Source: Leucoraja erinacea (lineage: Eukaryota). From it: a stretch of DNA of 64,000 nucleotides. This document shows positions 4,227 through 62,048 of the stretch, piece by piece. The position numbers and the translations under genes were made by a program. Positions within the stretch are counted from its first letter, which is position 1. Every line of letters starts with the position of its first letter. The notes beneath the pieces were generated by a model. It ran no database searches. It saw only the letters and a program-made list of their open reading frames with translations, and was not told the DNA's origin. The DNA lies in the NCBI RefSeq assembly GCF_028641065.1, contig NC_073405.1:15376001-15440000 (forward strand), read 5' to 3'.

Positions 4227-18526
<14,300 letters not shown>

Positions 18527-22518: not shown

Positions 22519-22609
22519 ATGGAAATGCTGCTTCCGCTCTTGCTGCTCTGCTCGGCGTTCGGCTCCACACAGCCTGCAGTCTATTTCACTGAACAGTTTA
22601 AGGACGGAG
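22519..22609 (+). CDS. CALR3: Calreticulin exon 1 ([30 protein letters not shown])
   Basis: Hydrophobic signal peptide, donor G|gtgaga. Confidence 0.92.
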
Positions 22610-36609: not shown

Positions 36610-36651
<42 letters not shown>

Positions 36652-39600
36652 GAGTATGTATAAACACTGCTGTAATTTCTACATGGTGAAACCAAAATGT
36701 ATAAAAATGGCCTTTATTAAAATGTGCACTTTAACCACATTGTGATTTTTTTTTTCTATTACAAATCTCAAATTATGGAGTACAGAGGTAAATAAATAAA
36801 TGGTGAGTCTTTGTCCCAAACATTATCGAGGGCACTGTAAGTAACAGATGCCTTGGCATTTAAATTCAAGTAGTCACGCAATGAATACCGCAAACTTCTC
36901 TTTAACTGCATATTTAACTGTATGCTGCTCATTTTAGTAAGTTATGAATGAAATAAAGATTTCCACCATAGTGTGAGAATGCTAGTTTGTAGTGCTGTAT
37001 AATTACAATTATAATTAACCCTTGTTTCCTGCTAAAGATATTCCATCATTCCACACTTTTCCCACGATTGTAAATGAAGTTCCTTCAGTTGAATCTAGAA
37101 ATAAGCAGAATTCACTATTTTGACTTATTAAAGATGGTTGCTTTTCACAGCTACTAGGAGCAGAATAGCAACTGACCAAAACTGTTTAAAAACTGAATGC
37201 ATTGAAAAGCCAGCTACTGCTTGTCATAACGTGTATTAATGTTCTACTTTAAACACTTTCAAACTTGCATATTGCATTAAAGAATGGCAGGTTGGTTGGT
37301 TGTTGCTATAATAATTTCATTGATTTATTATTGCCCTAGGGTGAATGGAAACCAGGACAATTAAAAAATCCCGACTTCAAAGGTGCCTGGGTTCATCCAG
37401 AGATCGACAACCCCGAATATGCTCCTGATGACAACATGTATAAATTTCAAAACATTGGTGTGATTGGCTTGGACTTGTGGCAGGTCGGTAATTGCGGGTG
37501 TTGCTAACTAATTCAGGAAAGAATGTAACAATTGGCATCCTTCTTTACCTAATCTAGTTTGAATGTGAAGTGCTGATAACCTAATCTCAATAGGTGTCTT
37601 GGAGTCGTCCTCATTACCATGAAGGGGAGAGATTAATTTACTTTGAGTAAACTGCACATTTGTTTAATTTAATGCAGCAGTCAGGATTCTGTTGCTATCT
37701 GATAGGGGGAAAAAAAGTCATCAGATTCAGTATGCTTGATGGCTCTGGTTAACTATGATGCAAACAGACCGATTAGTTCCAACTCTGTCTAATGCTACAA
37801 AAAGGGCAGGATGAAAATTGGGTAGCAGGTTAAGCTACCCAATAGCTCCTTCAACCTGCTCTTTCATTGAATAAAAGCATGACCAAAGCTTAGCCTAAAT
37901 AGCAGTATTGTGGATTGTGCAATATTAAACATTTATTGTTTTTTTTTTGGTCTGGTCCTACAGTGTTTAATGTGGTTTTTTTTCCCCTCACATATTCGTT
38001 CTTTTGTTCCGAGCATATCACACCCCTCTGGCAACTCCATAGTTCTCCTTCTCTGTTTCTTCTGTTAAATTTGATTAGTGTGATATGTTCACTACTCGTT
38101 TGTAAAGCCTCTGGAAGTAAGGCTCAGGTCATGGGACCACTGTGAGGGGGGAGGGGAAGAACAATGAAGGACCCGGGGTGGGGGAAACTGCCGTGAGGGA
38201 GGTAGGGGGAGAACAATGGACAATAAGGGGGGGACCTGGGGTGGGGGGGGGGGCTGGGGGGGGGGGGGGGGGGGGGGGACAAAAGGGGGAGCCGGCATGT
38301 TTGGTAACTTTGTCAGCCCCGTAGGTGGCTGCTATTTGTATACATTGTGTACGCAAGCAAAGAATCTCTGTGCCTAGTCACATGTGACAACAAAGTATTC
38401 CTATTCCTAATTCCACTGAATAAAATCTAACGGTCCTCGGAGAGACTTGATCATAATTGTTCAGTTGATCATAACTTTTCAAAGGTTAACAACTATATTT
38501 CAAAGTTAAAAGAACAATTGACATATGATGTGGAAAACAAATTTCACTTGTGTATTGAGTCTAGTTATAGTTTTTAGAGATATGCCACACAAACAGGCCT
38601 TCAGCCCTCTGAGTCCATGCCGACTTTCGATCACTCTTCAACACTAGTTGTATTTTATCCCACTGTCTACACATGGAGAGCAATTTTAGAGCCAATTAAC
38701 CTACAAGCCCGCATGTCTTTGGAATGTGGAAAGAAACCGGAGTAGCTGGATGAAACCCATGCTGTCACAGGGAGAATGTGTAGTCACCACCGCGGCTCTT
38801 CCAACTGCACCACTGTGCTGCCCTGAAGTTTTTCAGATTAAGTTTGGTCTGTTATTCCAAAGCTGACATTTTATTTTCAGAAAAGAAAGCCTCCCTCCCA
38901 AGTGCATTGAGGAGAGCACTTCCCTGTCGATTCTTTACCTTGGGCAGTCATCCTTGTCTCAGTATTGGCGCCTGCACAGTTGGATGGTTTTGGATGCACT
39001 CTATATAATGTACCGTGAGGGTCTGCACCGTGGTAGTATCTTTCAGATGTTGACATCTGCAGTAGTTCTGATAGACTAGAATATTAAAAGTAGAATCTTC
39101 TGTCTATTCCCAGCACCTTTTTATAATCGTCACTATATATTATGATAATGCTGAATTTTGGATTGTCTGGCTTATGATGTGCCTCCTTGAAAACTGGCCA
39201 AGTACCAACTTTGAAATCTGCAATACAAAATGAAATTGAAGTGCATGAAGATTGGCATACAGCAAGTTCATGCTCACAACTGCAGCCAATGATTTTACTC
39301 CATTCGTTTTTTTTTATATAGGTAAAATCAGGAACGATTTTCGATAACTTTCTGATTACTGATGATGAAAAGTATGCAGAAGAGTTTGGCAATGAGACCT
39401 GGCAAAAGACCAAGGTGAGGTATCTGTTGGTTGAAGTTGGAATGAGTAAAGTTCACACAATCAGTTAATTAATTTTATTGACACGTTGGTTCTGTGGCAC
39501 ATTTTGTCATAAAATTTATTCCCTGGCCACATACAACTCCATTGATATTGCTTTATATCCCGGCCCCATACAACTGTGAACTCCATTGGTATGGCTTTAT

Positions 39601-40982
39601 TATTGACACATACTGAGATGGCACAGAAAAGAATGTTATTATATAACACGTACAATCAAACCATACACGTGCAAGATAGTGCAAAGAGAAAAATACCAGG
39701 ATACAGAGTATAGTGTTACTGTGTTTAAGTGTTACATTTACAGAGAAAGTACAAATTAAAAGTAAGATCCAAAATGAGGCATGTTGGGAGATCGGCACTA
39801 TTCCTTTAGCCAAGGGAAAATCGTTCAGCCAACTGAACAGCAGAAAAGAAGATGTTCCTGAATCTGGTTGTATATGCTTTCAAGCTTTGGTATCTTCTGC
39901 TGATGGGAGTGGGGAGAAGAGGGAATGACCAGGGTGTAAATGGTGCTCTGAGACTTTGCAAGTGTACTAATTTGATATTTGGAAATAATGATTAGATCTC
40001 GGTCGCCTTTTCTTAAGAGCCAACTGATGTCAATCATAACTAGAGTAATCAATTGTGGATATTTATTTAAGTAATGGGCTCTTTTATATTAAAAATAAAA
40101 AATAAAATAAAAAGGAGCAAAAGAAAGGTGTTAACGGTAGAAATCCCTGCCCCGTCTTATCGACGTTATCAGATTTTTTGTTGTTGTATAAATCGTATCT
40201 TCCCCTGGCAGTTTTTTTTTTGGACAATATTACAACATTTGCATCTTAATCACCTGGTCTGAATGATGGACAAACCCAGCACCAGATCAGAGTTAATTTC
40301 ATGGTCTGCAACTATATAAAAGTGTTCCTGGAAGTCTTTGCCACTAACCACAGTCTAGATGGAGTGATACCAGGTTAAAAGAGGAAATGTCCTGCTGATT
40401 ACCACCTGGCTTCTGTCAGTTGCTGAATCAGTTATCCTTCATTTGAACAATACTTAGAACAAACACTGGAAGTAGTCGGGGCAGAGAATTTAATTCTGAC
40501 AGGGAATAAAATGTAATTTACTAAAATGGACAGCACCGCCACTGCCTGATTCAGCTGGGTCTTCACTTGCTTTGTGGCAAATGGTCAGGATTATTTAGAG
40601 TTGTATCTGATGAGTGAGAGGTTTCACAACATCACAAATGAATTACTGTCAAATCTGTATAGTATCTTGTTGAAATAAAATAGCTTAATCTGCTAACTTT
40701 CCAGAGGTTTTTGCAGGTTTTACTCAATGAACTGAGATACTCACTTTAATTGGGTAATTTTTATCTGTTCATGACGAAAATGTGTGTTTTGTTCAAGTGT
40801 TAACTGAATTTAGATCTGGCTTTGAGTACAGTGTCATTCAAGCTTCTTGATGGTTTCATTTAGGACTCTGAGGAGAAAATGAAGAAAAGCCAGGATGAAG
40901 AAGAAATGAAACGCCATGCTGAGGAGGAGAAAAAGAATGATGGTGAGGAAGAGGAGGATAAAGAAAGCAAAGATGAGGAGGT

Positions 40983-41013
<31 letters not shown>

Positions 41014-41073
41014 GAAGAAGAAGAACAAGACAATGAATCAGAAGATAAAACTCTGAAAAAAGATGAATTGTGA
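22519..41073 (+). CDS. CALR3: Calreticulin, CALR3 lineage, 9 exons, 420 aa, signal peptide and C-terminal KDEL (gene span)
   Basis: Exons 22519-22609, 27035-27136, 29110-29313, 30050-30144, 31436-31645, 32758-32871, 37340-37483, 39322-39414, 40864-41073 (91/102/204/95/210/114/144/93/210 nt, the calreticulin pattern). [24 protein letters not shown] and the C19orf44 neighbour point to the CALR3 clade. Confidence 0.92.
22861..22900 (-). ncRNA. Minimal hammerhead-ribozyme motif of a Penelope terminal repeat
   Basis: Minus strand CAGT-CTGAAGA-A-GGGT-TCCG-ACCC-GAAA-T-GTC-ACC: CUGANGA core, stem II, GAAA, GUC site. Confidence 0.6.
23640..24715 (+). mobile_element. 5'-truncated Penelope-like retroelement (RT C-terminus, GIY-YIG endonuclease, terminal repeat)
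   Basis: [25 protein letters not shown]; [34 protein letters not shown]; TSD CTTT(G/A)AAGCACAGGC at 23625-23639 and 24716-24730; 30-bp tandem duplication at the 5' junction (23637-23696). Confidence 0.9.
24935..25128. mobile_element. Inverted pair of Penelope terminal repeats with a hammerhead motif on the minus strand
   Basis: Minus strand 25021-25060 GT-CTGAAGA-A-GGGT-TTCG-ACTT-GAAA-CGTT-GCC; degenerate forward copy follows. Confidence 0.7.
27035..27136 (+). CDS. CALR3: Calreticulin exon 2 ([34 protein letters not shown])
   Basis: AG/GT boundaries, 102 nt. Confidence 0.95.
27979..28530. mobile_element. Tc1/mariner (pogo/Tigger-type) MITE, 552 bp
   Basis: Perfect 23-bp TIR CAGGTGCACAACCTTTTATCCGA, TA TSDs at 27977-27978 and 28531-28532. 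Confidence 0.92.
29110..29313 (+). CDS. CALR3: Calreticulin exon 3 ([28 protein letters not shown])
   Basis: Calreticulin signature motif, 204 nt. Confidence 0.95.
30050..30144 (+). CDS. CALR3: Calreticulin exon 4 ([32 protein letters not shown])
   Basis: AG/GT boundaries, 95 nt. Confidence 0.95.
31436..31645 (+). CDS. CALR3: Calreticulin exon 5 ([22 protein letters not shown])
   Basis: AG/GT boundaries, 210 nt, P-domain repeats. Confidence 0.95.
31877..32621 (+). mobile_element. Unclassified GC-rich non-autonomous retroelement with Rex1-type 3' end; partial reversed copy at about 42407-42580
   Basis: Abrupt CpG-rich block inside an AT-rich intron; 3' end gtctgaat..(cttga)n; shared 3' hairpin with the second copy. 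Confidence 0.65.
32758..32871 (+). CDS. CALR3: Calreticulin exon 6 ([38 protein letters not shown])
   Basis: AG/GT boundaries, 114 nt. Confidence 0.95.
34265..36837 (+). mobile_element. Tc1-like transposon (same family as 13949-15154), long IR/DR-type TIRs, defective transposase
   Basis: CAGTGCCCTCCATAATGTTTG..CAAACATTATCGAGGGCACTG-TA; [40 protein letters not shown]. Confidence 0.92.
35050..35947 (-). mobile_element. 5'-truncated RTE-clade LINE nested in the Tc1 copy
   Basis: [53 protein letters not shown]; TSD GTACTTAAAAGAG(C/T)AACC at 35032-35049 and 35948-35965. Confidence 0.92.
37340..37483 (+). CDS. CALR3: Calreticulin exon 7 ([33 protein letters not shown])
   Basis: AG/GT boundaries, 144 nt. 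Confidence 0.95.
39322..39414 (+). CDS. CALR3: Calreticulin exon 8 ([31 protein letters not shown])
   Basis: AG/GT boundaries, 93 nt. Confidence 0.95.
40864..41073 (+). CDS. CALR3: Calreticulin exon 9, acidic C-domain ending KKDEL*
   Basis: Acceptor tttcatttag, Glu/Asp-rich tail, TGA at 41071-41073. Confidence 0.95.
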
Positions 41074-45066: not shown

Positions 45067-48000
45067 TGTAGATCAGTCACTATTCCTAGTCCATGTCGGG
45101 TGTTCGTACAGACCGTTCCTGTAGTATGTTATCTGGCGCATGTGTGCCACCCAGGAGAGGTTCTGATGGGGAGCACCGAGGTGGAATGCAGGGGCTTTGT
45201 CAGTAGTATGTATGCCTCGTGGCCATTAAACTTTTTATATGAAATTAAACAACTTGTCATTATTTCCACAACTTCATACATGGTGTCAGAAGTTTTATTC
45301 CGGATCTTCATCTGCTTGAGCTTTGAGTTTTTCTCTCTCTATTTCTCAACTAGAGAGATCGAAAAGTTTGTCTGCTAATCGAACATGGTAGGTAGTCATG
45401 CAGCAAAAAGAAAAATGTCCAGCTTTTGGTCAACAATGCTTTGCCTGTAAAAAAACCTAATCATTTCAAGAGATGCTGCAAGTCCACACAACAAATTCAC
45501 AGCAGGCAGAGACCTAAGCAGCCTGTTCACCAGCTGGAATCAGATCAAACTGACAGCAGTCTAAGGAACCTGTCTGTGTTGATGTAATACTGCAAATGGA
45601 TTATTTTGATGCACAGAGAGTAAAAAATGACAAAACTTGGTCACGGTGCAGGTTAATAACAGTTCAGTTGAAATGAAAGTAGACATTGGTGGTAAGTTTA
45701 ATGTGATGCCGAAAAAGTAATTTATGCATCTACAGGATAGCGAACAATTAAAAGCATGCAGTAAAGCCATTACCCTAATTGCATATGGTGGCATAAAATC
45801 ATACCTGTTGGAATGGTAAAGTTGCAGTGCCACCTAGGACAGTTATACACACTACCATTTTATATCGTTAAAGAGGGTGCTGTGTCACTGCTAGGGCTAG
45901 TGCATGCAAGCAAATGGGGCTGGTCTTGTTCAGCAAGGATGTTCACCAGTTGACCCCCGCTAAAGATGATCTATCACACCGATTTTTTTGCGGAATACAG
46001 CGGTCTCTTTACTGACGAGCTTGGAAAGCTACCAGTAACCTACTCGATGACACTTAGCTCGGATGTGAGACCTGTTGTTCATCCTGCACATCACATTCCT
46101 ATGGCAATGCAGGACAGAGACAAAGCTGAACTAGACAGAATGCAGGCATTGGGTGTCATCACGCCTGTGACGGAGCCAACCGATTGCGTGTCATTAATGG
46201 TTGCCACCAACAAAAACAAACAAGAAATCGAATATGCATCAATCCAAGACACCTGAATGCTGCTCTGAAAAGGTCACACCACCCCATGCGCACGGTGGAA
46301 GAAGTGGTTGCACACATGGCAAACGCAATGACATTTTCTGTGTTAGATGCTTAAAATTCCTTCTGGCAGATTCCGCTTGACTATAAGCCTTCAATGCTAA
46401 CCACTTTCAGCACTTCTTTTGGCCGCCACAGGTTCTTACGGATGCTGTTCGGACTCAACTCTGCCAGTGAGGTGTTCCATGGAACAGATTTTCGAAGGTT
46501 ATCATTGACAACGACATCATCATTGCAGGTTAAGACGTTGAAGAACATGACTGAAGAAGGGTCTCGACCCGAAACGTCACCTATTCCTTCGCTCCATAGA
46601 TGCTGCCTCACCCGCTGAGTTTCTCCAGCATTTTTGTCTACCTTTGAAGAACACAACGCTAACTTAAGAAAAGTGCTTAATCGTGCCAGAAAGGTGCACT
46701 TGAAGCTTAATCCACTCGTGCAAGTTCCAAGTGAACCAGGTCAGCAATGTTGGACACATTTTTACAAGCGAAGGCCTTAAAGCCGACGCATCCAAAACGA
46801 TGGCAATCAGTGAGATAATGGCACCGGCAGATGTCCCCGCTCTGCAACGGTTTCTGGGGATGGTCAACTACCTTGGAAAATGTATTTCCAATTTCAGTCT
46901 GCTGTTGGCTCACCTGTGCTAACTCGCACAGACACTGCTTGGACGAGGCACGAGCAGCAAACGGCATATGTCTTCCCCACCTGTTCATCTTACTATATCA
47001 ATAAGCCAGTCGCACTTACCTGTGATGCTGCACAGTATGGCCTTGGTGCAGCATGTTTGCAGGAAGTAAAGCTTGTTGCGTATGCTTCACGGACAATGAC
47101 GGACACTGAAACTAGATAAGCTCAAAATGAAAAAGAGCTGTTGGTGGTGTTTTTTGCGTGTATCTATGGCAAGCCAGTGACCATAGAAACGGACCACCAA
47201 CCACTGGTCACTATACTGAAAGAGCCCATACATACGGCACCAGCAAGACTTCAAAGGATGATGTTAAGTACAGCATTACCCTCATTTCCAAATGTGGAAA
47301 ACAAATGTACCTGGCGAACACTCTGTCTCGGGCTCCCAGGAGATCCACAGCCCAGCATGCAGCCGGGAAAGACAGTTTTGATGTCATGGTGGTCAATCAC
47401 ATTTCCTCTTCTCGCTTAGAGGAATTGGTGTTACACACAGCGGATGGCGTGACTTTGCAGACACTTACCACTATCATCAAACATGGATGGCCCAGCAAAC
47501 AATGCATGCTTCCGCATGCTATTCGCCCTTATTTTCCTTTCAGAGATGAATTAACCATTGAAGATGGGGGTCATCATGAAAGGCCACAAAGCAGTTATCC
47601 CTGTCTCACTACAAAAGGAGTATGTTGGCATCATGCAGAGGGCATCCTGGGGCAGAAGCCACGGTAAGAAGAGCAAGGGGCATCGTTTTCTGGCCTGCAA
47701 TGATGGATGATATCAACCTGGAGGTACACATGTCCGTGTGCAACAGTACAAAGTCACACCAGCAGAGGGTACCACTTCTGCTGCATCCAGTTCCAGAATT
47801 GCCTTGGTCCATGGTGGTAACAGACATCTTTGAATGGCATAATCAATGATACTTGGTGTTAGTAGACTCATATTCCGGCTGGTATGAGATTGACCTGCTT
47901 CGCACTACTACTTCAGCAGCTGTCAATTTAAAACTAAACAGGCACTTTTCAGTTCATGGAGCACCACATACTCTCATATCAGACAATGCTGGGCAGTTCA

Positions 48001-49102
48001 CGCCAGTGCTTTAAAGACTTTGCCATACAGTGGGACTTAACTCATGTTACCAGCAGCCCTGAGTATCCACAATCTAATGGGTTAGCTGAACGAGCCGTCC
48101 GCAGCGCGAAACAAGTCATGGAGAAATCTTAGAGACCGATCGGATGTTTTCTTAAATCTCAATCTCAGTATTGTGCGACGTGACACAATGTTTGGATCTC
48201 CAGCACAAAGACTAATGTCAAGGCAAACACGTACTACCCTCCCAGTCTCGAGGAAACTGCTTGAACCTCACATGTGTAACATTCAGGCGGTTCACGCCCA
48301 ACTTCTCAACAAAAGGCTGTCACAGAAACCGTGTTATGATCAATCAAGGCGAACATTTCAGCCTTTGATGGAAGGACAGGTTGTCCAGTTACAGACCCCA
48401 CAAGGCTACAACCGAACGGGCATGGTAAAGGAGATATGCCAGGAGCCTAGATCTTATATTATTCACTCAGAAGGAAAGTTATACAGGAGGAATTGCAGAC
48501 ACATTTTGCCTGTCGACGAGCTTGCACCAACATAGCAAAGTCCATGTGATGTTGCCATTGATTACCCGGATACTGGAATGGGGTCAGAAAGCGAGAATGT
48601 TCTCACAAGGAATGGACAAGAAACAATGGACTTTGAGCGGTCTCAGGTTCAGGTGCCTGTGCCGGTGGTTAAATCACCTTTGAATGCCACTGAGGGGATT
48701 TACAGGACATGCTCAGGTCGTGTCAGCAAGCCAAATCCTAAATACAAAGACTGAATATTTTCTTTACGAAATTGATTAATTGGTATAAGCGTTGCTTTGC
48801 CGTAGTTATTAGATAGCACATCATTTTATATAAGCTTTGCTAGAATTATATGTTTGCTTTAATTCATGCAGCATGAGCTAAAGAAAGAGGATGTAGATCA
48901 GTCAGATTTGTAGTCCATGTCAGGTGTTCGTACAGACCGTTCCTGAAGTATGTTATTTGGCGCATGCGTGCCAACTAGGAGAGGTTCTGACGGGGAGCAC
49001 CGAGGTGGAATGCAGGGGCTTTGTCAGTAGTATGTATGCCTCGTGGTCATGAAACTTTATATGAAGTTAAACAACTTGTAGTTATTTCCACAACTTCATA
49101 CA
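45067..49102 (+). mobile_element. Gypsy (Mag-like) LTR retrotransposon, decayed, most of gag deleted
   Basis: LTRs 45067-45280 and 48892-49102 (TG..CA, roughly 90% identical by eye); PBS TGGTGTCAGAAGT (tRNA-Leu); PPT AAAGAAAGAGGA; TSD cccag/ccaag; zinc knuckle, protease, RT (FLGMVNYL), RNase H (CDAAQYGLGA, TDHQPL) and integrase (GHPG..FWPAM, YPQSNGLAER) remnants. Confidence 0.93.
46551..46581 (+). ncRNA. Minimal hammerhead-ribozyme core in a Penelope-terminus insert (46548-46643) inside the Gypsy RT
   Basis: CTGAAGA-A-GGGT-CTCG-ACCC-GAAA-CGTC-ACC; TSD TTGAAGAACA at 46538-46547 and 46644-46653. Confidence 0.65.
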
Positions 49103-49630: not shown

Positions 49631-50249
49631 AAAAACTAATTAAAAAAAAACACGCATGTGCGTATTTTGGGTTATGTTGCAGACCCCTGTCCTAGATGTT
49701 AGGCCTCATTCGGCTCATCATTGGACTTTGGTGAATTTAGAAGTTCCACGGCTTCACAGACAGTGACTTTGCACAGTACGCATTTTGTTTATGATTACTT
49801 TGTTTATTTATCTGTGAAGTGAGCGTGTATTAACTTTATTTTCGGGAATTAAGTTTTAAATGGGCAGAAACAAACTAAAGAGGTATCAAGTTAGATTCCC
49901 AACTTCTAAGCTTAAGTTAAACGTTGTAGCTTGTCGTAACTTGTCGCGGGTGGACATAAGTTTACTTCAATTGTCGTAGGTTGTCTCCTGCGTGGTAGTA
50001 GGTTGTTGCCTGTGTGGTCGTAGGTGGACGTCCCAATTCGCGAGGAATTGTGTCGCCGGTCGACGTAGCTTGTGGTAGCTTGACGTCGACTAAGTGGTAG
50101 CATGTCGTAGACATTGTCGTGGAGTGGGTCCAGATTTCTCACTCTCAACTCTCACCCAATGTTGGCAGGTCTTAAGTAGTCATTGACACGAATAGTTCCA
50201 TGACACGAATAGTAGTTAATGGCTGAATGCAGGAAAGGAGGTAAGGTTT

Positions 50250-51250
50250 GATCACAGCTGATCCAAAGGGCCCTCGCACCACCGGCTGCTGCTGACGTCA
50301 CGCTGGAACCCCTCCCTTCCCGCTTCGGTGACGCCAGAGCGCCAGCCACTTGTGACGTCATGCCGGTATCTGCCGGCAGGCGGCCGCGAAAATACAACTA
50401 GAAAATGGCCGAGTGCTGGCTGTTTATCCAAAAGTTAAAGCTGCTCGTTTCGGCGGTTGAATGGGAGACTTTTGCTTAATTTTTCAACACGCCAAGGAAA
50501 GGTTTACAAACACCTCGTTACGGTCCCGCGCCAGGAAGACCGAGAGACTACATACTTATCCAAGCACTAACGGTCTCCGTCTCCAAGATGGCGGCGGTGT
50601 GTCGATCACGTGCTGTGTCCGGACCGCGGAGCGGCGAGTCACAGGTGACGTTGCGCTGAGAGCGCGTTGGACGCTGTGCGTGCTCGCTCCCCGCCGACGA
50701 CGTGCGGCTCTCGTGGCGGCGGAGGTGCGCACACCGCGGCGCGAGGACACTTACCCCTCCTCTCTCGGTTCCAGCGTGATGACGCAGAATTTTGGGCGCG
50801 AGGACGCGTGGTGGCATCGGGAGCGCGCACGTTGACACTCTGAGTGACTGAGCGGCTGCAAGGGGTTAGACGGACCGAGAGCGGGAGAGGGAGACGATGC
50901 AGATCACGCTGAAGACCCTCCAGCAGCAAACCTTTCGCATAGACATCGACTCTGAGCAGACGGTGAGTCCATGTGGTCTGCACTAGGCCCTGCCTCTCGG
51001 CCTCAAGACGCGTGAAGTCGGAGTAGAGGGCGGGTGCAAGAAGAGACGCGGCGCATTCGGACCAGGCCGCGGTAGCAGATAGGAGAGCGGCGGTGTAGGC
51101 CTGGGCCTGGATCAAAAATGGCCAGTCTATTGATGGAGTGAGGAGAAGACTGCAAGCGTTGGACTGGCTTACAGCCCGTGGGAGCGGCTGGCTGAAATTG
51201 GACCTTTCGTTCACCAGGGGTTCGGGGCGCGTGCATCCATAGGATACTTC
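50250..51250 (+). promoter_or_regulatory. CpG island promoter of the RAD23 gene
   Basis: High CpG density; full CREs TGACGTCA at 50293-50300 and 50353-50360; YY1 motif CAAGATGGCGGC at 50584-50595; E-box CACGTG near 50607; ARE-like TGACnnnGC at 50646-50654 and 50845-50853. Confidence 0.8.
50897..50962 (+). CDS. RAD23: RAD23 family UV excision repair / ubiquitin receptor, exon 1 (MQITLKTLQQQTFRIDIDSEQT)
   Basis: RAD23 UBL N-terminus; donor ACG|gtgagt; 66 coding nt as in RAD23B. Confidence 0.93.
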
Positions 51251-53099
51251 GGTGATTCTGGGGGCACCAGGCCTTCGAAAGTCAAGCAGACTGTTTCTCC
51301 CCCTGCCACAAACATTAATGGGTCCATGCGAGTCTCCCTTTCCTACCCCGCGATGCTTTCTGAGAACAGACAACATATTCGTGCCCATGCGGCCAACAAA
51401 ATGTCTGTTTCCTCGCTGCAGGGCCAATATATCTGCTGTGTGGTGATGGATATACGAGTAGTCTTTAACATGAGTAGAGGGGAGAGACTTTCCAGCTTTG
51501 GCGGGTTAATACACCTCTTTTTGACGGTCTGGCGCTCAGCACGGAAGGTGAAGGATAGGGGGATTGTATGATGCATCAAATTAGAAAGACTAACGTTAAA
51601 CGTGCACTGGCAGCAGATCCGAAACAACCATGACACAGCAATGTAATACAGGTTTGATGTTAAGTATGCGGGGCCAGCAGAATCTGAAGCCAACATAACT
51701 GCATTGACAATAAACATGGGGAATTCTTACTAAAAACAGTTGTTGCTACCTCCAACCTAGTCTTCTGAACTGCAAATATAATAACGGAGGACAGGAAATA
51801 CTCAGTGGGTCAGGCAGCATCAGTGGAAAGAAAATAGTTAATCTTTCAGTTTGAAAGACATGTAATGAGCTAAATGTAGGCTTTGTTTGTTTATTGCCAC
51901 TGAAAACACATTTTTTATCTTAAAATATTTAGCGGTATTGAGAGCAAGCAAGTTTTTTTAATGCAATGTTACAGTATTTAAAATATTAGGGTTGTGTGGG
52001 GATTAAATGTTGGTAGTCTGATCCCAGAATAAACATATTGTTCAGAACAAGTATTGTAAGGAAGTTGTGTTTCAAAATGAGTATTGAAGTTGTTTGAGGC
52101 ATGTATGAAACCATATTAATCAGGAAAGAGAAAATAATAAGCCTGAAGGAATGAGTTTGGGGAAAGGTGAATTCAAAACTCGTTAAAAAAAATTTGAAGT
52201 CAAACCAAACTTTGAAGTAACATATCTATGTTTCTGGTAATGGCCTATTAATACATTCAATTTGGCTCTTATAACAACTTGCATTTATTCGCTGCTCTGT
52301 GTGAGAATGTGATAATGCTTCACAAGAATGTAATCAGCAAATGTTGTTATTGAGACAGATTACCAATGGCTTGGTCAGGAAGGTGGGTTTTAAAGGAGGG
52401 AAGAGCAGGACTTGGACCATACATTGTGCGTAAATGGCTTTTATTGATTTTGCATTCCCTGAGAAACAGCTTTTTTGAAGTGGTTTGAAAAAATATAATT
52501 TGGATCAGTGGCTGTATTAAAGCATTTTGAGTAGGGAGCACTTTATGGTTCAATTCCTGGGTTATGGTGTATCTTATCTCAACTTGTGTAGCATTTGGAG
52601 TCCTGCAATTGATATCAGAAATAGGAAGGTAAGATCTGAGGCAGCACTTCTCTATTACTCTCCAGTGACCCCTGCTGGAAACTATGCCTCTGGCAACAGG
52701 ATATAGGCACAGCCTTTCACCATAGAGGCTCATGTGATGGAGAATGATCATTTTAATACGGTAAAGGTTCATATATCAGCGAGAGTTGGTTCTTTCACTC
52801 TGATCAAATTACTGTTACAAAAAATGACTTTAATGTTACCTTATTGTACTTGTGTTGTTCTTTGCCTATTGATCCTGCCTTTTGTTTAGATATCATGGCA
52901 CTTGAATTAGCAGGTACTTGAATAGTTGATGGCTAGAATTCTACCAAATGCAGAATCATATGTTTCTCAAGTTGATAATATTGTTCAGACACTATTTCTG
53001 TTTTCCCTTGAACTTGGAGAATTGTTTTTGGAATAGTTACATATATAATTTGTGTGATTTCTTTCTATTTTGAATGTCATTCTAAACTTTATAAATCGT

Positions 53100-53830
53100 A
53101 AGGTTAGTAGGTAGAGAGGGGTGAGTATTTCATATGTACCTCCCGTTGTGGATCACTCGGAGTAAATTTTAAATAGTGGCAGATTGAAAAGTGCTATTTA
53201 GAGGTTTCTAGGTGTTCTTAGATCATTAAAATGCAGATACAGCAAACAATTAGGAAGGCAAATTTTATATTGGGCTTTATTGCAAGGGGATTGTGAACGT
53301 GGTAAAGATGTCTTGCTGTAATTTTACGGGTCCCTGATGAGATCACACCCAGAATATTGTATGCAGGTCTGGTTCCTCACCTAAGGATATACGTGACAGT
53401 GAGAAAATTTAACCAGATTTGTTCCTGGAATTTCAGAGGGCGGTTGGGAGTGACAAAGCAGCCTGGGCTTACTCCCTTGGGTTTACAAGAAATATGCTAA
53501 ACTTTAATGGGTCTTGACAAAGTTAGCTTGGGCTGTTTCCCCTGCCTGGCTATCTAGAGAAGGGTCACAATCACAATATTCAGAGTAGGCAGTTCAGCAC
53601 TGAGATGTAAAGAAACTTCTGAGAAGATGATGAATCTTTGGAATTCTCTATTAAACAGCCGTGGAGGCTATTGTTGTTGAGTATATTTAAGATGGGATGC
53701 AATAGATTTTTTGATATTATGTGAGTTGAGAATAAGACATGAAAATTGCATTAAGGGAAAATTTTAGTCATTATCTTATGGAATGGTTATGAAAGCTCAA
53801 ATGTCTGGGTTAATGCTATTTCTTATCGGT
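53100..53830 (+). mobile_element. Old CR1 fragment
   Basis: Degenerate match to the CR1 copies at 6013 and 56001. Confidence 0.6.
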
Positions 53831-55778
53831 GCTTACTAGAGGATGGGCATGTAGTTCATTGTGAATTTTGAGAGTGGGCAATTGAATAATTCTTCTCCAA
53901 TAAGAATGACTAAATGCGAGCATAAAGCAAATTAATTAGATTATCTTTTGTGGGTGGTTAGTGAGTTCTCGTCTTAGAATTTAGCAAGTATAAGTCTTCA
54001 CTGTCCAAAGCATTGAGATTTAAACTTGGTTTCAACTGTGCAGTCAGATTAGCTTCAAGTACATAATATTTCGGTGACCCCAGAGGAAGATAGTACTTGG
54101 TGTGAATTTAACAGATGTGAAAGGCTTCCTGTTGACCTCCTACTATGTTCTTGTTTTTAATATATACACATCCCATAAAGGCTTGCTGCAGAGGTGGTTC
54201 ACTGGTGTAGCCAATTTGTTTCTCTTTTTGATAAAGTCCAGATATTCAACTTCAGATCTGTAGTATATTGTGTGAAATTGAAACAGATTTTTGAGTTAGT
54301 TATATAAATATGATGGCAAAAATGTCCCTAATTCTACAAGTCCTTTCAAGAGGATGCTTCCATGCAAAGCATCTGGCACAAATGGCATACCCGACCGAGT
54401 GCTAAAGATCTGTCCGGATCAACTGGATTCATGGAAATCTTCAATTTCTCATTTTTGTGATTTGAGAATTCACCTGATTCAAGAGGGCATCGATTGTACT
54501 TGTAATGGTGCCCAAGAAAAGTCAGATAACCTCCATCAATGACTACCATCCAGTAACACTTGCATTCGCTGTAAGGGAGTGCTTCAAGAGATTGTTTATG
54601 ATGTGAATCAACTCTTGTCCCCAAAATGACCCTGATCTGCTTCAATTTGCCTATCATAAGATCATGTGATAGAGTAGAATTAGGCCATTGGTCCATCAAG
54701 CCTACTCCGCCATTCAATCATTAGTGCAGGCGTTCCCACCCTTTTTCGGGTGAGTGAAAGGGAGAGGGGTGGTGTGAGTGGGTGGATCTAATTGGATCGA
54801 GGGTCTGAGACTGAGCAGGTTATCTAATTAGAGGATGTAATGTTCATGCCGTCAAGTTATATGTTGGAATAATGAGGTGTTGTTTCTAATTGGAATTTGG
54901 CCTCAATCTGGCACTGGAGGAAGCAGTGAGCAGATAGGTGGGAATGCAATGAGAATTGACATTGGTACCAACCGGGAGCTCCAAGTGGCCGTGGCAGAAA
55001 GAGGACAGGTTGCCTAGTCTTGCGCTTGGTCTTGCCAATGTTGAGGCCACAGCGAGAGCACTTAAAACATTGGCTGAGATGGATGGCGATGCATGTGAAT
55101 CTCTGCATCATTTAGAAGGGGTGTTTAGTCCCCTGAAATGCAGTGAGGGTGAAGGTGTAGGGACAAATGTTCCATTCCCTATGATTGCATGAGGTGGCGG
55201 AGAGATGGGTGAGGAGGAATGAAAGAATCAGGGAGTCATGGGGAGAGTGGTTCCTGAAGAAGGTAGAAAGTCGGGGAAGATGTTGATGTGACAGGTGGTA
55301 AAATTGTGTTGTAACTGTGGAAATGTCCGAGAAAGATCAGAATATGTTAAGTAATAGATTAAACCCACTTTGGCCACTGCCAAAGGTTTTACACACATGC
55401 CATTGTTTTCAACCTCTTGCTCTTCATGAAAAATTAAATTGACTTGATCTCTGCCTATACTGTTTCTAAATTTGTCCCTTCCTTTACCTGTACCGTTGAA
55501 TGTTATAACTTGGTTTATGCTGTGTTCCATTTTTATTACCAGATTTTTCTATCTCTATTCCCATCATCAAACACCATCCTTTTTTCGTTTCAACCAAGTT
55601 TAGTCATATGTCTGATATTCCTAAATTATGAGCAGCATTTCTTGGTTAGACGTGATATATAAATGTAAGGTATTGACTTCCCATTAATTTGATTAATAAT
55701 TTACCTGCTGTAGGCATTGTATTTTGAATGGTAAAATCTTATTGTTGAATAGCCAATGTCCACTATGAAAAAAACATG

Positions 55779-55984
55779 GACACAAAATGCTGGAGTGAGG
55801 CAGCATCTCTGGATAGAAGGAATGGGTGACTGTTTCGGGTCGAAACCCTTATTCAGACTGAAGAACGATCTTGACCCATAACGTCACCCATTCTATCTCT
55901 CCCGAGATGCTGCCTGTCCTGCTCAGTTACTCCACCATTTTGTGTCTATGTTTTTAAACCAGTATCTGCTGTTCCTTCCTATAC
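55779..55984. mobile_element. Inverted Penelope terminal-repeat insert with TSD
   Basis: TSD ATGAAAAAA(A)CATG at 55765-55778 and 55985-55997; head-to-head degenerate hammerhead motifs. Confidence 0.75.
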
Positions 55985-56000
55985 ATGAAAAAACATGTTA

Positions 56001-56805
56001 CTTTGGCGGCAAAAACAAGGGAGCAGATTATTATCTCAATGGGGTTAGGTTAGGTAAGGGGGTGGTGCAGCGAGACCTGGGTGTCCTTGAACACCAGTCA
56101 CTGAAAGTTGGCATGCAGGTACAGCAGGCAGTGAAGAAAGTTAATGGAATGTTGGCCTTCATAACGAGATGATTTCAGTATAGGAGTAAAGAGGTTCTTC
56201 TGCAGTTGTTTCGGGCTCTGGTAAGATCACATCTGGAGTATTGTGTACAGTTTTGGTCTCCTAATTTGAGGAAGGGCATCCTTGTGATTGAGGCAGTGTA
56301 GCGTAGGTTCACGAGATTGATCCCTGGGATGGCAGGACTCGTATGAGGAAAGATTTAAAAGACTATGCTTGTACTCACTGGAGTTTAGAAGGATGAGGGG
56401 GATCTTATAGAAACATATAAAATTATAAAAGGACTGGACAAGCTAGATGCAGGAAAAATGTTCCCAATGTTGGGCGAGTCCAGAACCAGGGGCCACAGTC
56501 TTAGATTAAAGCGGAGGCCATTCCAAAGGTTCATTTATTGTCACATTTAAGACTGAGGTGAGAAACTTTTTCACACAGAGTTGTGAATTTGTGCAATTCC
56601 CTGCCACAGAGGGCAGTGGAGGACAAAGCACTGGATGGATTTAGGAGAGAGTTAGATAGAGCTCTAGGGGCTAAGTGGAATCAAGGGATATGGGGAGAAG
56701 GCAGGCACTGGTTATTGAATGGGGACGATCAGCCAGGATCACAATGAATGGCGGTGCTGTCTCGAAGGGCCGAATGGCCTCCTCCTGCACCAATTTTCTA
56801 TGTCT
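56001..56805 (+). mobile_element. CR1 LINE 3' fragment
   Basis: QRDLGVL..QVQQAVKKVNGMLAFI..HLEYCVQFWSPNL; CR1 3' end. Confidence 0.9.
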
Positions 56806-58739
56806 TTGGGATGTGGTTTTGCAATAGAGTTAAGGGCTGGAGTCATCTTGGCATTAATGAGGAACTTTCCCACAGATATGTTTTTGTACATGTTGAATAC
56901 AATAGATGACGGCACGCTTTTACTCCAGTTTTCTTGAGTGAGAATTGCCGTGCATTGAGGAACAAACTAGGATCAGCTGCTGTCCTAGTGATCTGGCAGC
57001 AGCTGCTTTCCCTGTTACACCAGACTTAATATGTGACAGCCCTCTTTGTTTGGTCGACTGTCTGGTCAGGGTAGAACTAGTTGTGAGATGTGATCGATAA
57101 ATGTCAGGAATTTTGCAGCAGGAGGGATGAAGACAAAAAGGAATACAGCAAGTGGAGTGTTCCTTGTTGCTTTTTTGGTCAAGTTTTTTGTTGTTGTGCC
57201 ATAGCTTTTCGGGGAGTAGATGTACAGCATTTGTCATTTCATCATTAGAAAACGGATTTGCTACCCGAACATTGTGGTTAAATAGTGCTATGACCTATAC
57301 ATATCTTACAAATAAAATAAATCGGCTCCTCTCAGATGATCAACTTTTTAGACTTATTTAAATTTCTGTGCTTGTTTTTACATGTATATTATTTGGACCA
57401 GTCTAATTGTCCAATTGTGTTCAGAATCATTTTGTATTTCTATTTATCGTGTTCAGAGTTTTGTTAAAGATTATGTGAACATTTACTTGATTTCTTTGAA
57501 TCAAGACATTTAAAGCAAACAGCAAGTACTTCCATTGGAAAAGTAGCCTGATGGTATTCAAATTACATTGGATGATATGAAACTCCAATTGTGGCACCCA
57601 TTTTATTGAATCTAAGTTAGAAGTAGTACAAAAACTGGCTGAATAAATCTAACTATCAAGGAGTGGTTGAATCAAATACACTAATTTGACAAAACCGGGG
57701 GTTTGCATTTATTGATATCGTGGTCCATCATGTACCATCAGTAGGAACAACCAAGTATGAAGTGTTTGGCCTGTCAAATAATAATTTCGTAATTAATTTG
57801 ATATTTGTACGGATCTCGAAACAAGTGATTTCAAACTAACACCACTGAGAAGATTTGGTAAATCTGTTAATTTTGAGGACAGACATTAGAAAAATCATGG
57901 AAGCTTGTTTTAAAAAGCAGACCAGTTCATGTTGCACCACAAAGTTGCCATAATGGTTTTATATTTCTTCTTAAATTCAGACGTGTTCAAATCAAACATT
58001 TGTTTGAAAATTAAGTGAAAAGTTTTAAAGTGAAAAGGAAATGTCGTAACAGTTGCTTTAACTTTGACTTTTTCCCTGTAAGCTTACTGCAGATATTGAA
58101 AACCTGATCTCTATGTACTCACTAACTTGAAACGCCTTTTAAGACTAGTGGGTATGTAGAGAAAGCAATCAATCATTACTTTGGGACGATAATGTTTATC
58201 ACCCAAGTTGATAATCTTGGTTCTCATCTAATATCTACACTTGAAATGCATGATCTATACTGTTCCACATTTTTCATATGTTGTACCTTAACGAGTCGGA
58301 GAGGCAGATCATTCTAGAACTTGGATCTCGGACACTGCAGCTGGGATGTCATGTTCTATACTGTGCCATCGTGGTCTGCCTTTACTTGGTGTTAGTGAAA
58401 TTCATAGGCCTGGCTGGTTTCTGTGATGATTACAATCTCAGGAGGAAGTGGAGCTGGCTCATCTTTTGAGCATTTTTGCCTGAATGTGCTTGCGAATGCT
58501 TCACCATTGTCTCTAATGCTTCCATGCTGGTCCTTGTATATACTCAGAACATTGTTCTTTATCTCTCCACATCATCGTCTATATTTCTCATTTCCCTTAT
58601 CCCTAATCGGACCTGAGGAGGGGTCTCGACCCAAAATGTCACCCATTCCTTCTCTCCAGGGATGCTGCCTGTCCTGCGGAGTTACTCCAGCTTTTTGTGT
58701 CCATCTCTGAGTTGACATGTCTGTTCTTGAGTCTATTCA

Positions 58740-59420
58740 ATTTAGCACAGCATAGCACGTAGGACTGTACAACTCGGGAAGAGGACCATCTGCACACAAT
58801 GTCGGTGCTGTAATGTAATTTCATCTGCATGCACATGATCCATATACCTCTATTTCCTGCACATCTGTGTCTATCGAAAAGCCTCTTAAATGCCACTATC
58901 ATTGTCCCAAGAAAAAAACACTGCGCACATCTTTTATTCTTTTCCTCGATTACACTAAAGGTACGCCCTGTCGTCTGACATTTTAACCCTGGGGGAAAAG
59001 ATTCTGACTGACTACCCTAGCCGTGCTTCTCATAATTTTATATACTTCTATCAGGTCTCCCTTCAACCTCTGAGGTTTCAAGCTAAATAATCCAAGTTTG
59101 TTCAGCTGCTCCTCGCAGCTAATACCCCTTAATCCAGGCAGCATTCTAGTAAATCTCTTCTGCACCCTCTCCAAAACCTCCATATCGTTTCTGTAATTGG
59201 GTGACCAAACTCCATGGAACGTTCCAATTGCGACCTAACCAAAGTCTTCTAGAGCTACATCATGATGTCCTGACTCTTACTCAATTCACAACCAATGAAG
59301 GCAATCCATCTTTATCACTCAACCTACTTGTGTTGCCACTTTCAGGGAGCTATGGAGCTGGACCCCAAGATCCCTCTGCACATTAATGCTGTTAAGGGTC
59401 TTGCCATCAACCGTATACCT
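58740..59420 (-). mobile_element. CR1 LINE 3' fragment
   Basis: LERVQKRFTRMLPGL..RLKGDLIEVYKIM. Confidence 0.85.
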
Positions 59421-60274
59421 TCCTCGTACAATGAAGAAAGGATTTAACCCCATTGGTTAAATCAGTCATGATCATATTGAATGTCTGAAGGGCCGAATGG
59501 CCTCCTCCTGTGCCTATTTTTCTATGTTTCTGCTAGGACAATACAGTTGTTACTTTAGCAGATATTGGACTTTGTTTCAGGAACTGTGCACTCCATTGCT
59601 GAAAACTATATTTTGGATAATTTTGTGCAATTATAAATTTTCTGTTGGAGCAGAATGAAAGGGGTAAAAATATGTTTCTCTGTAGGAGCCACTTCAGTTA
59701 TTTCCTATTTATTGCAGTTTGTCATGTGACCCTCAATTGCAGTGTTGGTAGGGAACTGATTGGTTCAGAGGCGAGTGGAACTGCTAGATATGCTAGTAAT
59801 CATGGGTCAAGTGATGCAGTTAATTTATCCTGTGCATGAAGCTAAACTGTCAGTAGCACCGGAAAAAAGAGATACATTTTGCAGAATATTGTTGACTGAT
59901 GAAATGCTGTCTCGTGGGTGGTTTAATCTGAGCAGTTATGATTGTATTGATGCCAGTTTTGTATCCATTTATGAAAAGTTTCAAATCTTCTGGGTAGTTG
60001 GCAAAAGACCAAAAGCAAGTGTGTGGTGTGGTTGCTGTGGCACAATTTCATCCTCTCTTTACAAGGCAAGTCTATAGATTTGTGGAAATAAGGGACTGCA
60101 GGTGCTGGTTTACAACAGACATAAAGTGCTTGAGCAACTCAGTGGGTTGGGCAGCATCTCCAGAGAACACTGGTAGGTGACGTTTCAGGCCTGGGCCTTT
60201 CTGCAGACTCATCATGGAGGGAGGGGAGAGGAAAAAAAGCTGGAAAAGGGGAGGGGCAGGACAAAGCCTGGTAG

Positions 60275-61303
60275 TAGCAATGTTACAAAATTTTGAGATT
60301 TAAAAAATCTAATCCCATCTGATAAAGCATAAAAATAAGTTTAATTTGACACCTAATTCACTTTCATATCTTCAGTGTTAAAAATGTTTTGGCCATTTTC
60401 ATACTCGGAAATTAGCATCTTGTTCCCTATTGCTTTTCCATTGACTTAACACAAAAGCTGTGATCGAGGACAGTCAAAAGCCCATAACTTTCTTAAAAAT
60501 TAAGAGAACTGAAAGAAATTTTCAGTTATTCTAGATTGAAGTATTCTGAAACAAATATGAAACAATCTTACTTAGATGACTTGAAATTAAAGCATATAAT
60601 TAGTTAGTTACCTAATTGTAGCTAATTACAAAATTCAATTACTAGATCTAAACATCTATCAATTTCTTAAGAATAGATTAACATTTTTAAATAGCCTAAG
60701 TGTCCAAATAACATTCACACAAGAATTCACAATATAACATGATTTTTAAATCTCATTGTCATGGATTTATAGGCCAAATGGAAGGAATTTAATGTTTAAT
60801 ACCTGTAAATTAATGGCCATTTAAATCCTCTTGCGAGTGGGTTTTTCTGGAACGCGATCATTTGGAACATTGCGGTTTGCGGTGATTTAGTCCCCATATC
60901 GGCAGGAAAAATATTATCGGTTCGTATGGGGACTAAATCACCTTTTCGCAACTTAAAATGTGAATTAAAGGCATTTTAAGGACCACTTTTATACATAAAA
61001 TAAACGGCTTTCTTTTACCTGTCCCGTACCTGAAATCCGTCGGCGTTGACGGCTTTAGAAGCTGATTTTAAAATTACTCCAGCGCTGAAATTGTCGGGTG
61101 ATTTATTTTAAAAAAAAACCACACAGAACGACCGTCGGAACGATTCTTCAGCAAAAGCTTGCACTCCAACCAAATATATTCCAGGACAAGGTAGGAAAAA
61201 AACACATTTTAAACCCCCCCCCCCTCTCAAAGGCGCCAAAATCGCGCACACGGCCAGTGGCAGAATTGCAGCGCCGCTGAAGGTAAGTATTGTAACATAC
61301 CTA
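60275..61303. mobile_element. Non-autonomous hAT-like DNA transposon inserted into a Penelope fragment (about 60090-61620, minus)
   Basis: Imperfect TIRs TAGCAATGTTACAA / TAGGTATGTTACAA; flanking duplication CTGGTAG at 60268-60274 and 61304-61310; Penelope sequence resumes on both sides. Confidence 0.7.
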
Positions 61304-61715
61304 CTGGTAGGTAATAGGGGTAAGGAGGGATTTTTGATATTTAGATGGTTGGACAAAGGCCAGAGCTGAAAATAGGTATGAGATAAAAAGTTGTGAATTG
61401 TGAAGCTCGAAGAAGGAATGTAGGTGGAAGGGAAGGGGCAGGAAGAAATAGTTGTGAGTCCAGCTGGGGTGCAGGGGAGAAGGGCGCAATATACGAGGAA
61501 AGAGGAGGAATGTAGCTACCTTGGAGAATTCAATGTTCATACCGTTAGGTTGTAAACTACCCAGGAACAATGAGGTGCTTCTCCAGTTTGTATATGGGTT
61601 CACTCTGGCAGTGGAGAAGGCCAGTCTTTAGTTTTGGTTTGCTGAAAGTAACAATAATGAATGGCAAAGAAACTTGCATAGCAATCTCTTACCGCCTTTT
61701 CTATTTTTTCTTCAG

Positions 61716-61797
61716 GTAAAGGCACTGAAAGAAAAAATTGAAGCAGAGAAGGGAAATGATGCTTTCCCAGCTACTGGGCAAAAGCTAATATATGCAG
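61716..61797 (+). CDS. RAD23: RAD23 exon 2 ([28 protein letters not shown]); gene continues beyond the window
   Basis: Acceptor ttttttcttcag, donor G|gtaaga, 82 nt. Confidence 0.93.
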
Positions 61798-62048
61798 GTA
61801 AGATGCACCTTCTCTAGTTCCTGAAAAGGTTGGGTGTTCACATGCTTAGCTATTTAGAATGTATTCACATTGATGAAAAACTAGATGTGGGGCTGAGGTA
61901 CTAAATACAAGGTGCTTGTGAATGATTGCACATTCTGTACTGACATGTCTATTTCGACATGAGAATCTTGGCAGTCTGGAAATCTCTCAGAATACCGTGG
62001 TTGCTTTGGGAACACGTTTAGTTTCAGGTTGGCACAATCTCGCCAAGA

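What the first reader, a model, noticed from the sequence alone, without database searches (positions are those of the whole stretch)
50897..61797. RAD23B-like gene next to calr3: candidate third vertebrate RAD23 ohnolog
Seen: the protein starts MQITLKTLQQQTFRIDID and the first coding exons are 66 and 82 nt; the gene sits directly downstream of a CALR3-type calreticulin that is head-to-head with C19orf44. Known: human RAD23B starts MQVTLKTLQQQTFKIDID with an intron after the KLIYAG codons, whereas RAD23A starts MAVTITLK and lacks that intron. In human, RAD23A neighbours CALR, RAD23B is on chromosome 9, and CALR3/C19orf44 has no RAD23 neighbour. Inference: this may be the RAD23 copy of the CALR3 paralogon from the vertebrate genome duplications, lost in mammals and likely to be labelled RAD23A or RAD23B-like by automated annotation.
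Basis: partly seen in the sequence, partly recalled or inferred. Interest (0 to 1): 0.75.

Follow-up and report, generated by a model that had tools for sequence, protein, structure and literature searches.

The report
Third vertebrate RAD23 gene in skate
This skate gene belongs to a third branch of the RAD23 DNA-repair and protein-disposal family, separate from human RAD23A and RAD23B, that likely arose in the early vertebrate genome doublings; it was already listed for gar and reedfish, survives in sharks, rays, lungfish and bony fishes under misleading names, and appears to be lost in land vertebrates.

Summary
Coding exons of 66 and 82 nt (50897-50962, 61716-61797) start a RAD23 gene 9.8 kb downstream of a nine-exon calreticulin that is head-to-head with C19orf44. 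The 49 residues are identical to skate RefSeq proteins labelled RAD23B or RAD23B-like.

Trees place these proteins in a third clade (support 100/97-99) with shark, chimaera and lungfish 'B-like' proteins and gar, bichir, sturgeon and teleost 'rad23ab'. AU tests reject placing them in RAD23B (p=0.002) or RAD23A (p=0.012), and reject rad23aa+rad23ab as a pair (p=1e-7). Little-skate data put the gene between C19orf44 and Eps15l1/Klf2 on chromosome 29. A second Rad23 probably lies in the CALR/RAD23A block.

The idea is not new: Lamb 2021 (PMC8040251, Table S1) lists this ohnolog as [RAD23AL] in gar and reedfish, absent from five tetrapods. Added here: cartilaginous fish and lungfish keep it, it sits beside calr3, and teleost rad23ab is misnamed. 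Whether skates keep a true RAD23B is unresolved. Function (ubiquitin shuttle, XPC partner) is inferred from intact domains.

The parts
50897..50962 (+). RAD23 third-clade gene, coding exon 1 (66 nt; UBL residues 1-22)
50963..61715 (+). Intron 1 (10.75 kb, GT..AG, rich in dispersed repeats)
61716..61797 (+). Coding exon 2 (82 nt; UBL residues 23-49 plus the first base of G50); carries Ala41, found in 11 of 11 third-clade proteins and 0 of 19 A/B proteins aligned (also in the outgroups, so ancestral)
50001..51000 (.). CpG island over the RAD23 promoter and exon 1 (CpG observed/expected 1.09, highest of the 64 1-kb bins); two TGACGTCA motifs at 50293 and 50353
51326..51547 (+). Alternative first exon of a RefSeq-predicted Leucoraja isoform (XP_055514717.1); would replace UBL residues 1-22; not seen in other species' proteins here
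22519..41073 (+). Calreticulin at the CALR3 position: 9 exons (91, 102, 204, 95, 210, 114, 144, 93, 210 nt), 420 aa, acidic tail, KDEL
4895..18147 (-). C19orf44 (DUF4614) coding exons, head-to-head with the calreticulin; exon set not fully mapped, and the large ORF at 17368-18147 has no Pfam hit
45082..49102 (+). Decayed LTR retroelement between calreticulin and RAD23 (terminal repeats 92-94% alike, RNase H remnants); an insertion, not part of the gene

Best explanation
This is the skate copy of a third jawed-vertebrate RAD23 lineage ([RAD23AL] of Lamb 2021; 'rad23ab' in ray-finned fish), separate from RAD23A and RAD23B, likely made by the second vertebrate genome doubling as the sister of RAD23B and predicted to work as an ordinary RAD23. 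Shown: the exons, the neighbourhood, and a separate clade that includes cartilaginous and bony fishes and so predates their split. Inferred, history: the ancestral calreticulin-RAD23 tandem was copied with its chromosome. CALR-RAD23A survived in one copy, CALR3-RAD23AL-EPS15L1-KLF2 in this one, and RAD23B-KLF4 in a third; this copy was later lost in tetrapods. Inferred, function: from established RAD23 biology (recalled) and intact domains, the UBL would dock on the proteasome, the two UBA domains would carry ubiquitinated cargo, and the XPC-binding domain would stabilise XPC in nucleotide excision repair, largely redundantly with the other RAD23s.
For: Clade support is 100/97, 100/99, 100/98 and 100/98 in four IQ-TREE runs with different taxa and models. 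AU tests reject cartilaginous-fish proteins grouped with RAD23B (p=0.0022) or with RAD23A (p=0.012), and reject rad23aa+rad23ab (p=1.2e-7). Gar and Polypterus, which predate the teleost duplication, each have both a 'rad23aa' and a 'rad23ab'. Little-skate promoter baits on Leri_29C: C19orf44 15.39, Rad23b-1 15.42, Eps15l1 15.47, Klf2-1 15.75 Mb; Klf4 is on Leri_3C; Calr-3 and Gadd45gip1 are on Leri_39C (PMC10115646 SI Table 10). A second gene, Rad23b-2 (LE16281), has ID neighbours Ap1m2, Pnpla6, C19orf66 and Kank2. A fused calreticulin+RAD23 model in Rhinoraja shows the same tandem in another skate; one in crow shows CALR-RAD23A. Lamb 2021 Table S1: RAD23B quad A, [RAD23AL] quad B (gar LG19 5.27 Mb, 0.18 Mb from TPM4; reedfish 12), RAD23A quad D. 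Gar XP_015221197 and skate XP_032902616 are close in accession number to the quad-B gene JAK3 of the same species. All four domains are intact; XPC-binding domain 56/59 identical skate to gar and 48/59 to marmoset RAD23B, UBA2 47/47 to both. An unnamed Logan contig of at most 3.9 kb encodes the full 403-aa protein, so a spliced transcript exists in some skate.
Against: Only 49 residues lie in the window; the trees use full-length orthologs as proxies. No cartilaginous-fish RAD23A or RAD23B protein was retrieved, so the trees lack them. The B+third-clade sister relation has only 82/88 support, and the alternatives are not rejected (p=0.17, 0.21); Ala41 versus Val would group A with B. The 2R pairing therefore rests on Lamb's paralogon scheme. 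No lamprey or hagfish sequence was in the trees. Identity of [RAD23AL] with gar XP_015221197 is by elimination and accession proximity, not by an ID match. The calreticulin is CALR3 by position only; PMC5824609 found amniote CALR3 outside the fish CALR-like clade. Reads gave no exon 1-2 joint. No function was tested.
Confidence: 0.92

Rival explanations
1. It is the true skate RAD23B ortholog, moved next to calr3.
For: RefSeq names it 'RAD23 homolog B' in Amblyraja and Callorhinchus. It is closer to human RAD23B than RAD23A (456 vs 414 bits) and shares the intron after KLIYAG. No other cartilaginous-fish RAD23B was retrieved.
Against: The AU test rejects it (p=0.0022). It groups with gar and teleost rad23ab, and Denticeps has both this type and a true RAD23B on different contigs. 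Gar has RAD23B on LG2 and the third copy on LG19. Skate Klf4 is on another chromosome.
Confidence: 0.03
2. It is a third lineage made by a local or segmental duplication before the jawed-vertebrate split, not by whole-genome duplication.
For: The branching order of the three clades is unresolved in my trees. No cyclostome sequences were available to date it.
Against: The calreticulin-RAD23 tandem recurs at two loci. The three genes occupy three different quadruplicates of one paralogon in Lamb 2021, in which JAK2/JAK3/JAK1/TYK2 form a quartet.
Confidence: 0.04
3. It is the skate RAD23A ortholog, and the neighbouring calreticulin is really CALR.
For: Human and crow RAD23A sit directly downstream of CALR in the same orientation (crow fused model; human order recalled). 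Ray-finned orthologs are named 'RAD23 homolog A ... b'.
Against: The AU test rejects it (p=0.012). RAD23A lacks the intron after KLIYAG. The skate has a separate Calr/Gadd45gip1 block on Leri_39C and a second Rad23 among 19p13.2-type genes.
Confidence: 0.01

Closest known systems
[RAD23AL] of Lamb 2021 (PMC8040251, Supplementary Table S1, paralogon 8 quad B; gar ENSLOCG00000003740, reedfish ENSECRG00000021283)
   Same: Same lineage by tree and position: a third RAD23 ohnolog on gar LG19, listed as absent from Xenopus, zebra finch, chicken, opossum and human.
   Different: That table covers seven bony vertebrates at chromosome level. The main text has no mention of RAD23, and it gives no cartilaginous fish, lungfish or teleost copy and no gene-order link to calr3.
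Ray-finned fish 'rad23ab' (RAD23 homolog A, nucleotide excision repair protein b)
   Same: Orthologous: same clade, 100/97-99.
   Different: The name implies a teleost duplicate of rad23aa, which the data reject (p=1.2e-7). Many teleost copies have a longer first linker (439-496 aa against 403).
Human RAD23B (HHR23B; PDB 8ebs_I, 28js_J)
   Same: Same UBL-UBA1-XPC-binding-UBA2 layout, E 8e-136; same first two exon sizes (human sizes recalled); probable 2R sister.
   Different: A separate clade and chromosome. Sites fixed only in the third clade include A206 and L210 near UBA1 and T321 and V328 in the XPC-binding domain; the glycine-rich run before UBA2 is shorter.
Human RAD23A (HHR23A; PDB 1oqy_A)
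   Same: Same domains (E 5e-123); also lies downstream of a calreticulin.
   Different: A separate clade; no intron after KLIYAG; shorter protein (about 357-363 aa).

Membership tests
RAD23 family (UBL-UBA shuttles) | N-terminal ubiquitin-like domain | tested here: met
   Window exons match RAD23 UBL chains; PF00240 on the ortholog P0002, E 9e-21
RAD23 family (UBL-UBA shuttles) | Two UBA domains flanking an XPC-binding domain | tested here: met
   On the ortholog P0002 (outside the window): PF00627 with two stretches, PF09280 E 4e-23
RAD23 family (UBL-UBA shuttles) | Binds proteasome, ubiquitin chains and XPC | not testable with these tools
   Inferred from domain conservation; no complex prediction was run, since a pass would only mirror solved human structures
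RAD23B orthologs | Monophyly with coelacanth, tetrapod and teleost RAD23B | tested here: not met
   AU p=0.0022; separate clade
RAD23B orthologs | Linked to KLF4 | tested here: not met
   Rad23b-1 on Leri_29C, Klf4 on Leri_3C
RAD23A orthologs | Monophyly with RAD23A/rad23aa | tested here: not met
   AU p=0.012
RAD23A orthologs | No intron after the KLIYAG codons | tested here: not met
   GT donor at 61798 against read-through in A-type ORFs
[RAD23AL] / rad23ab lineage | Monophyly with gar and reedfish third copies | tested here: met
   100/97-99; identity with Lamb's gene IDs by elimination and accession proximity
[RAD23AL] / rad23ab lineage | On the chicken-28 / human 19p13.11-type block | tested here: met
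   C19orf44 and calreticulin in the window; Eps15l1 and Klf2 on Leri_29C; TPM4 beside it in gar; human order recalled
2R ohnolog, sister of RAD23B | Tree ((B, third), A) | tested here: inconclusive
   Best tree has it at 82/88 (84/49); alternatives p=0.17 and 0.21
CALR3 orthologs (neighbour) | Monophyly with amniote CALR3 | not tested
   No CALR3 sequences were in hand; assignment is by position, and PMC5824609 reports amniote CALR3 outside the fish CALR-like clade

The most novel reading that the evidence does not exclude
Reciprocal loss: cartilaginous fishes have lost RAD23B and use this third ohnolog in its place, while tetrapods lost the third copy and kept RAD23B, so every shark or skate 'RAD23B' in databases is a hidden paralog. 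None of the 66 B-clade proteins carries a cartilaginous-fish name, only Rad23b-1 and -2 appear in the readable skate tables, and Lamb's reedfish row also has [RAD23AL] without RAD23B. Against this, the same searches also missed the skate's probable RAD23A, and the tables are partial.
Probability: 0.3. Interest if true: 0.45.

Novelty: new member of a known kind. Interest (0 to 1): 0.27.

Why it matters
It fixes orthology in a well-studied repair family. Fish studies that treat rad23ab as a copy of RAD23A, or shark 'RAD23B-like' as RAD23B, are using a gene that humans lack, and single knockouts in fish may be buffered by a third paralog. It adds a gene-order example (calreticulin-RAD23 tandem kept at two ohnologous loci) to the KLF1/2/4 paralogon. 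It is not a new mechanism, and the ohnolog was already in a published table.

Tried and rejected
No whole genome is held for this window, so the skate's other RAD23 loci could not be searched directly.

Searching for shark RAD23A/B proteins: three homolog searches (120 listed of 298, 3995 and 3546 hits) and the 50%-identity representative search (150 listed of 6982) returned none I could identify. This is weak evidence of absence, since each list is cut.

Laying four runs on 50400-62000 was swamped by intronic repeats. No exon 1-2 joint was among the 15 joints shown (393 more were hidden) and the exon-2 bin was almost empty. Run X24 (another organism) had one-strand reads at depth 3.3 over the exon-1 bin only. 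Inconclusive. The run search was used only to choose those runs.

The ESM Atlas returned RAD23 clusters, a rad23ab-named one first, and adds nothing independent. Earlier scan findings: none by words or by sequence.

Supplements: PMC8302630 had no RAD23 hit (zip read only to 4 million characters). PMC11979771's supplement could not be read. PMC10972751 showed only two adjacent hagfish models that look like halves of one gene. The sole BAC in PMC6579814 lists calr, eps15l1 and klf2 without a rad23.

Rejected as evidence: the N-terminal motif (shared with fish RAD23A) and the protein labelled Lampetra planeri (nests among percomorph teleosts; left out of the later IQ-TREE runs).
Full report
Observation. 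The window sequence shows an ATG at 50897 inside a CpG island (observed/expected 1.09 in 50001-51000). Exon 1 is 66 nt with a GT donor; exon 2 (61716-61797) is 82 nt with an AG acceptor and a phase-1 GT donor. Each exon matches human RAD23 UBL chains. The rest of the gene lies beyond the window. Upstream on the same strand is a complete calreticulin (nine exons, 420 aa, KDEL), 384/412 identical to the calreticulin part of a Rhinoraja model and 186/264 to crow CALR. C19orf44 (DUF4614) exons are on the minus strand. A decayed LTR element fills part of the 9.8 kb gap.

Organism and proxy. The 49 encoded residues are identical to Amblyraja XP_032902616.1 and Leucoraja XP_055514719.1. A RefSeq-predicted Leucoraja alternative first exon matches intronic window sequence at 100% over 74 residues, so the window is little skate or a very close relative. 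I used the 403-aa Amblyraja protein (P0002) as proxy. It has UBL, two UBA and XPC-binding domains.

Phylogeny. Four IQ-TREE runs (49, 36, 24 and 28 proteins chosen from those retrieved; LG+G4 or LG+C20+F+G4) give three clades. RAD23A has support 95/83, 86/99, 95/92, 94/89. RAD23B has 99/99, 92/82, 99/99, 99/99. The third clade has 100/97, 100/99, 100/98, 100/98 and holds skates, rays, sharks, elephant shark, lungfish, bichir, sturgeon, gar and teleost proteins. AU tests on the 24-protein set reject cartilaginous-fish proteins with B (p=0.0022), with A (p=0.012), and ray-finned rad23ab with rad23aa (p=1.2e-7). With five invertebrate outgroups the best tree is ((B, third), A) at 82/88, but the two alternatives are not rejected (p=0.17, 0.21). 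A FastTree of 322 proteins of 300-560 aa put 93 in the third clade, 66 in B, 157 in A and 6 outside (five invertebrates and one Takifugu RAD23B). Of the 93, 81 carry names: none is a tetrapod or coelacanth, and one labelled Lampetra nests among percomorphs. These lists are cut at 120-150 hits, and the divergent lungfish model P0021 did not make the top 120, so a fast-evolving amphibian or coelacanth copy could be missed. No cartilaginous-fish RAD23A or RAD23B protein was retrieved.

Synteny. In the little-skate paper's supplement (PMC10115646; rows of SI Tables 5 and 10 seen, file cut when stored, main text not read) promoter baits on Leri_29C run C19orf44 15.39, Rad23b-1 15.42, Eps15l1 15.47 and Klf2-1 15.75 Mb. 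This fits the 28 kb between the calreticulin and RAD23 start codons in the window. Klf4 is on Leri_3C; Calr-3 and Gadd45gip1 are on Leri_39C. A second gene, Rad23b-2 (LE16281), has ID neighbours Ap1m2, Pnpla6, C19orf66 and Kank2, which I recall as human 19p13.2 genes; I infer it is RAD23A, though no coordinate was seen. No third Rad23 appeared in the six hits. Fused calreticulin+RAD23 gene models in Rhinoraja and crow show the tandem at both loci. The human order KLF2-EPS15L1-CALR3-C19orf44, with no RAD23, is recalled; a sole BAC shows calr-eps15l1-klf2-ap1m1-tpm4 (PMC6579814, passages).

Prior art. Lamb 2021 (PMC8040251; passages of the main text and supplement rows seen, supplement cut when stored) lists the trio RAD23B (quad A), [RAD23AL] (quad B) and RAD23A (quad D) in paralogon 8. 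[RAD23AL] is present in gar (LG19, 5.27 Mb) and reedfish (chr 12) and blank in Xenopus, zebra finch, chicken, opossum and human. His scheme pairs quads A and B at the second doubling, matching my weakly supported tree. Gar TPM4 lies 0.18 Mb away, and the gar and skate proteins have accession numbers close to JAK3 of the same species. So the third ohnolog is known as a table row. Ten full-text searches found no paper that discusses it, places it in cartilaginous fish or lungfish, or notes that rad23ab is misnamed. That library lacks most subscription papers, and unread or cut supplements (PMC8302630, PMC11979771, parts of PMC10115646 and PMC8040251) may bear on this. Other papers seen: PMC5824609 (passages; fish CALR-like genes date to the second doubling, and amniote CALR3 falls outside them), bioRxiv 10.1101/794404 (one passage, RAD23A beside DAND5 in coelacanth), PMC10972751 (two supplement rows), bioRxiv 10.1101/2022.12.08.519562 (one irrelevant passage).

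How it likely works. With domain limits I set by eye, the skate protein matches gar rad23ab at 62/76 (UBL), 41/46 (UBA1), 56/59 (XPC-binding) and 47/47 (UBA2), and marmoset RAD23B at 66/76, 39/46, 48/59 and 47/47; linkers have diverged. This is strong conservation of every working part, so I expect a standard proteasome shuttle and XPC partner (family knowledge, not tested). A few sites are fixed only in the third clade (A206, L210, T321, V328 among them) and could tune binding, but nothing suggests a new activity. A spliced transcript is indicated by an unnamed Logan contig of at most 3.9 kb that encodes the whole protein; the read lay was uninformative.

Verdict. The additions are its presence in cartilaginous fish and lungfish, its position beside calr3, and the naming error in fish. 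The open and more interesting question is whether sharks and skates still have a true RAD23B. Interest 0.27.

Noticed in passing
window 51326-51547 (+): Alternative first exon of a RefSeq-predicted Leucoraja isoform; it would replace the first 22 UBL residues and probably break the fold.
   Followed up: partly
window 45082-49102 (+): Decayed LTR retroelement with terminal repeats 92-94% alike and RNase H remnants, between calreticulin and RAD23.
   Followed up: partly
window 486-1085 (+): Terminal PRY-SPRY exon of a TRIM-like gene, tail-to-tail with C19orf44; in human the neighbour on that side is CHERP (recalled).
   Followed up: no
P0028 (CAM9333757.1): Labelled Lampetra planeri but nests among percomorph teleost rad23ab; probably a mislabelled or contaminated record.
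   Followed up: partly
P0012 (XP_078280006.1) and P0040 (XP_017598232.1): Fused calreticulin+RAD23 gene models in Rhinoraja and crow; likely annotation read-through across the tandem, as the calreticulin here has its own stop after KDEL.
   Followed up: partly
window 50293, 50353, 50585: Two TGACGTCA palindromes and an AAGATGGCGGC motif in the CpG island, recalled as CRE- and YY1-type sites of housekeeping promoters.
   Followed up: no
window 14044-14334, 34763-35071, 23969-24454: Tc1-type transposase remnants and a GIY-YIG fragment in introns of C19orf44 and the calreticulin.
   Followed up: no
PMC10115646 SI Table 10, Leri_10C: Eps15 and a 'Klf2-2' lie on skate chromosome 10, the probable fourth copy of this block; whether a calreticulin or RAD23 remnant survives there was not checked.
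   Followed up: no
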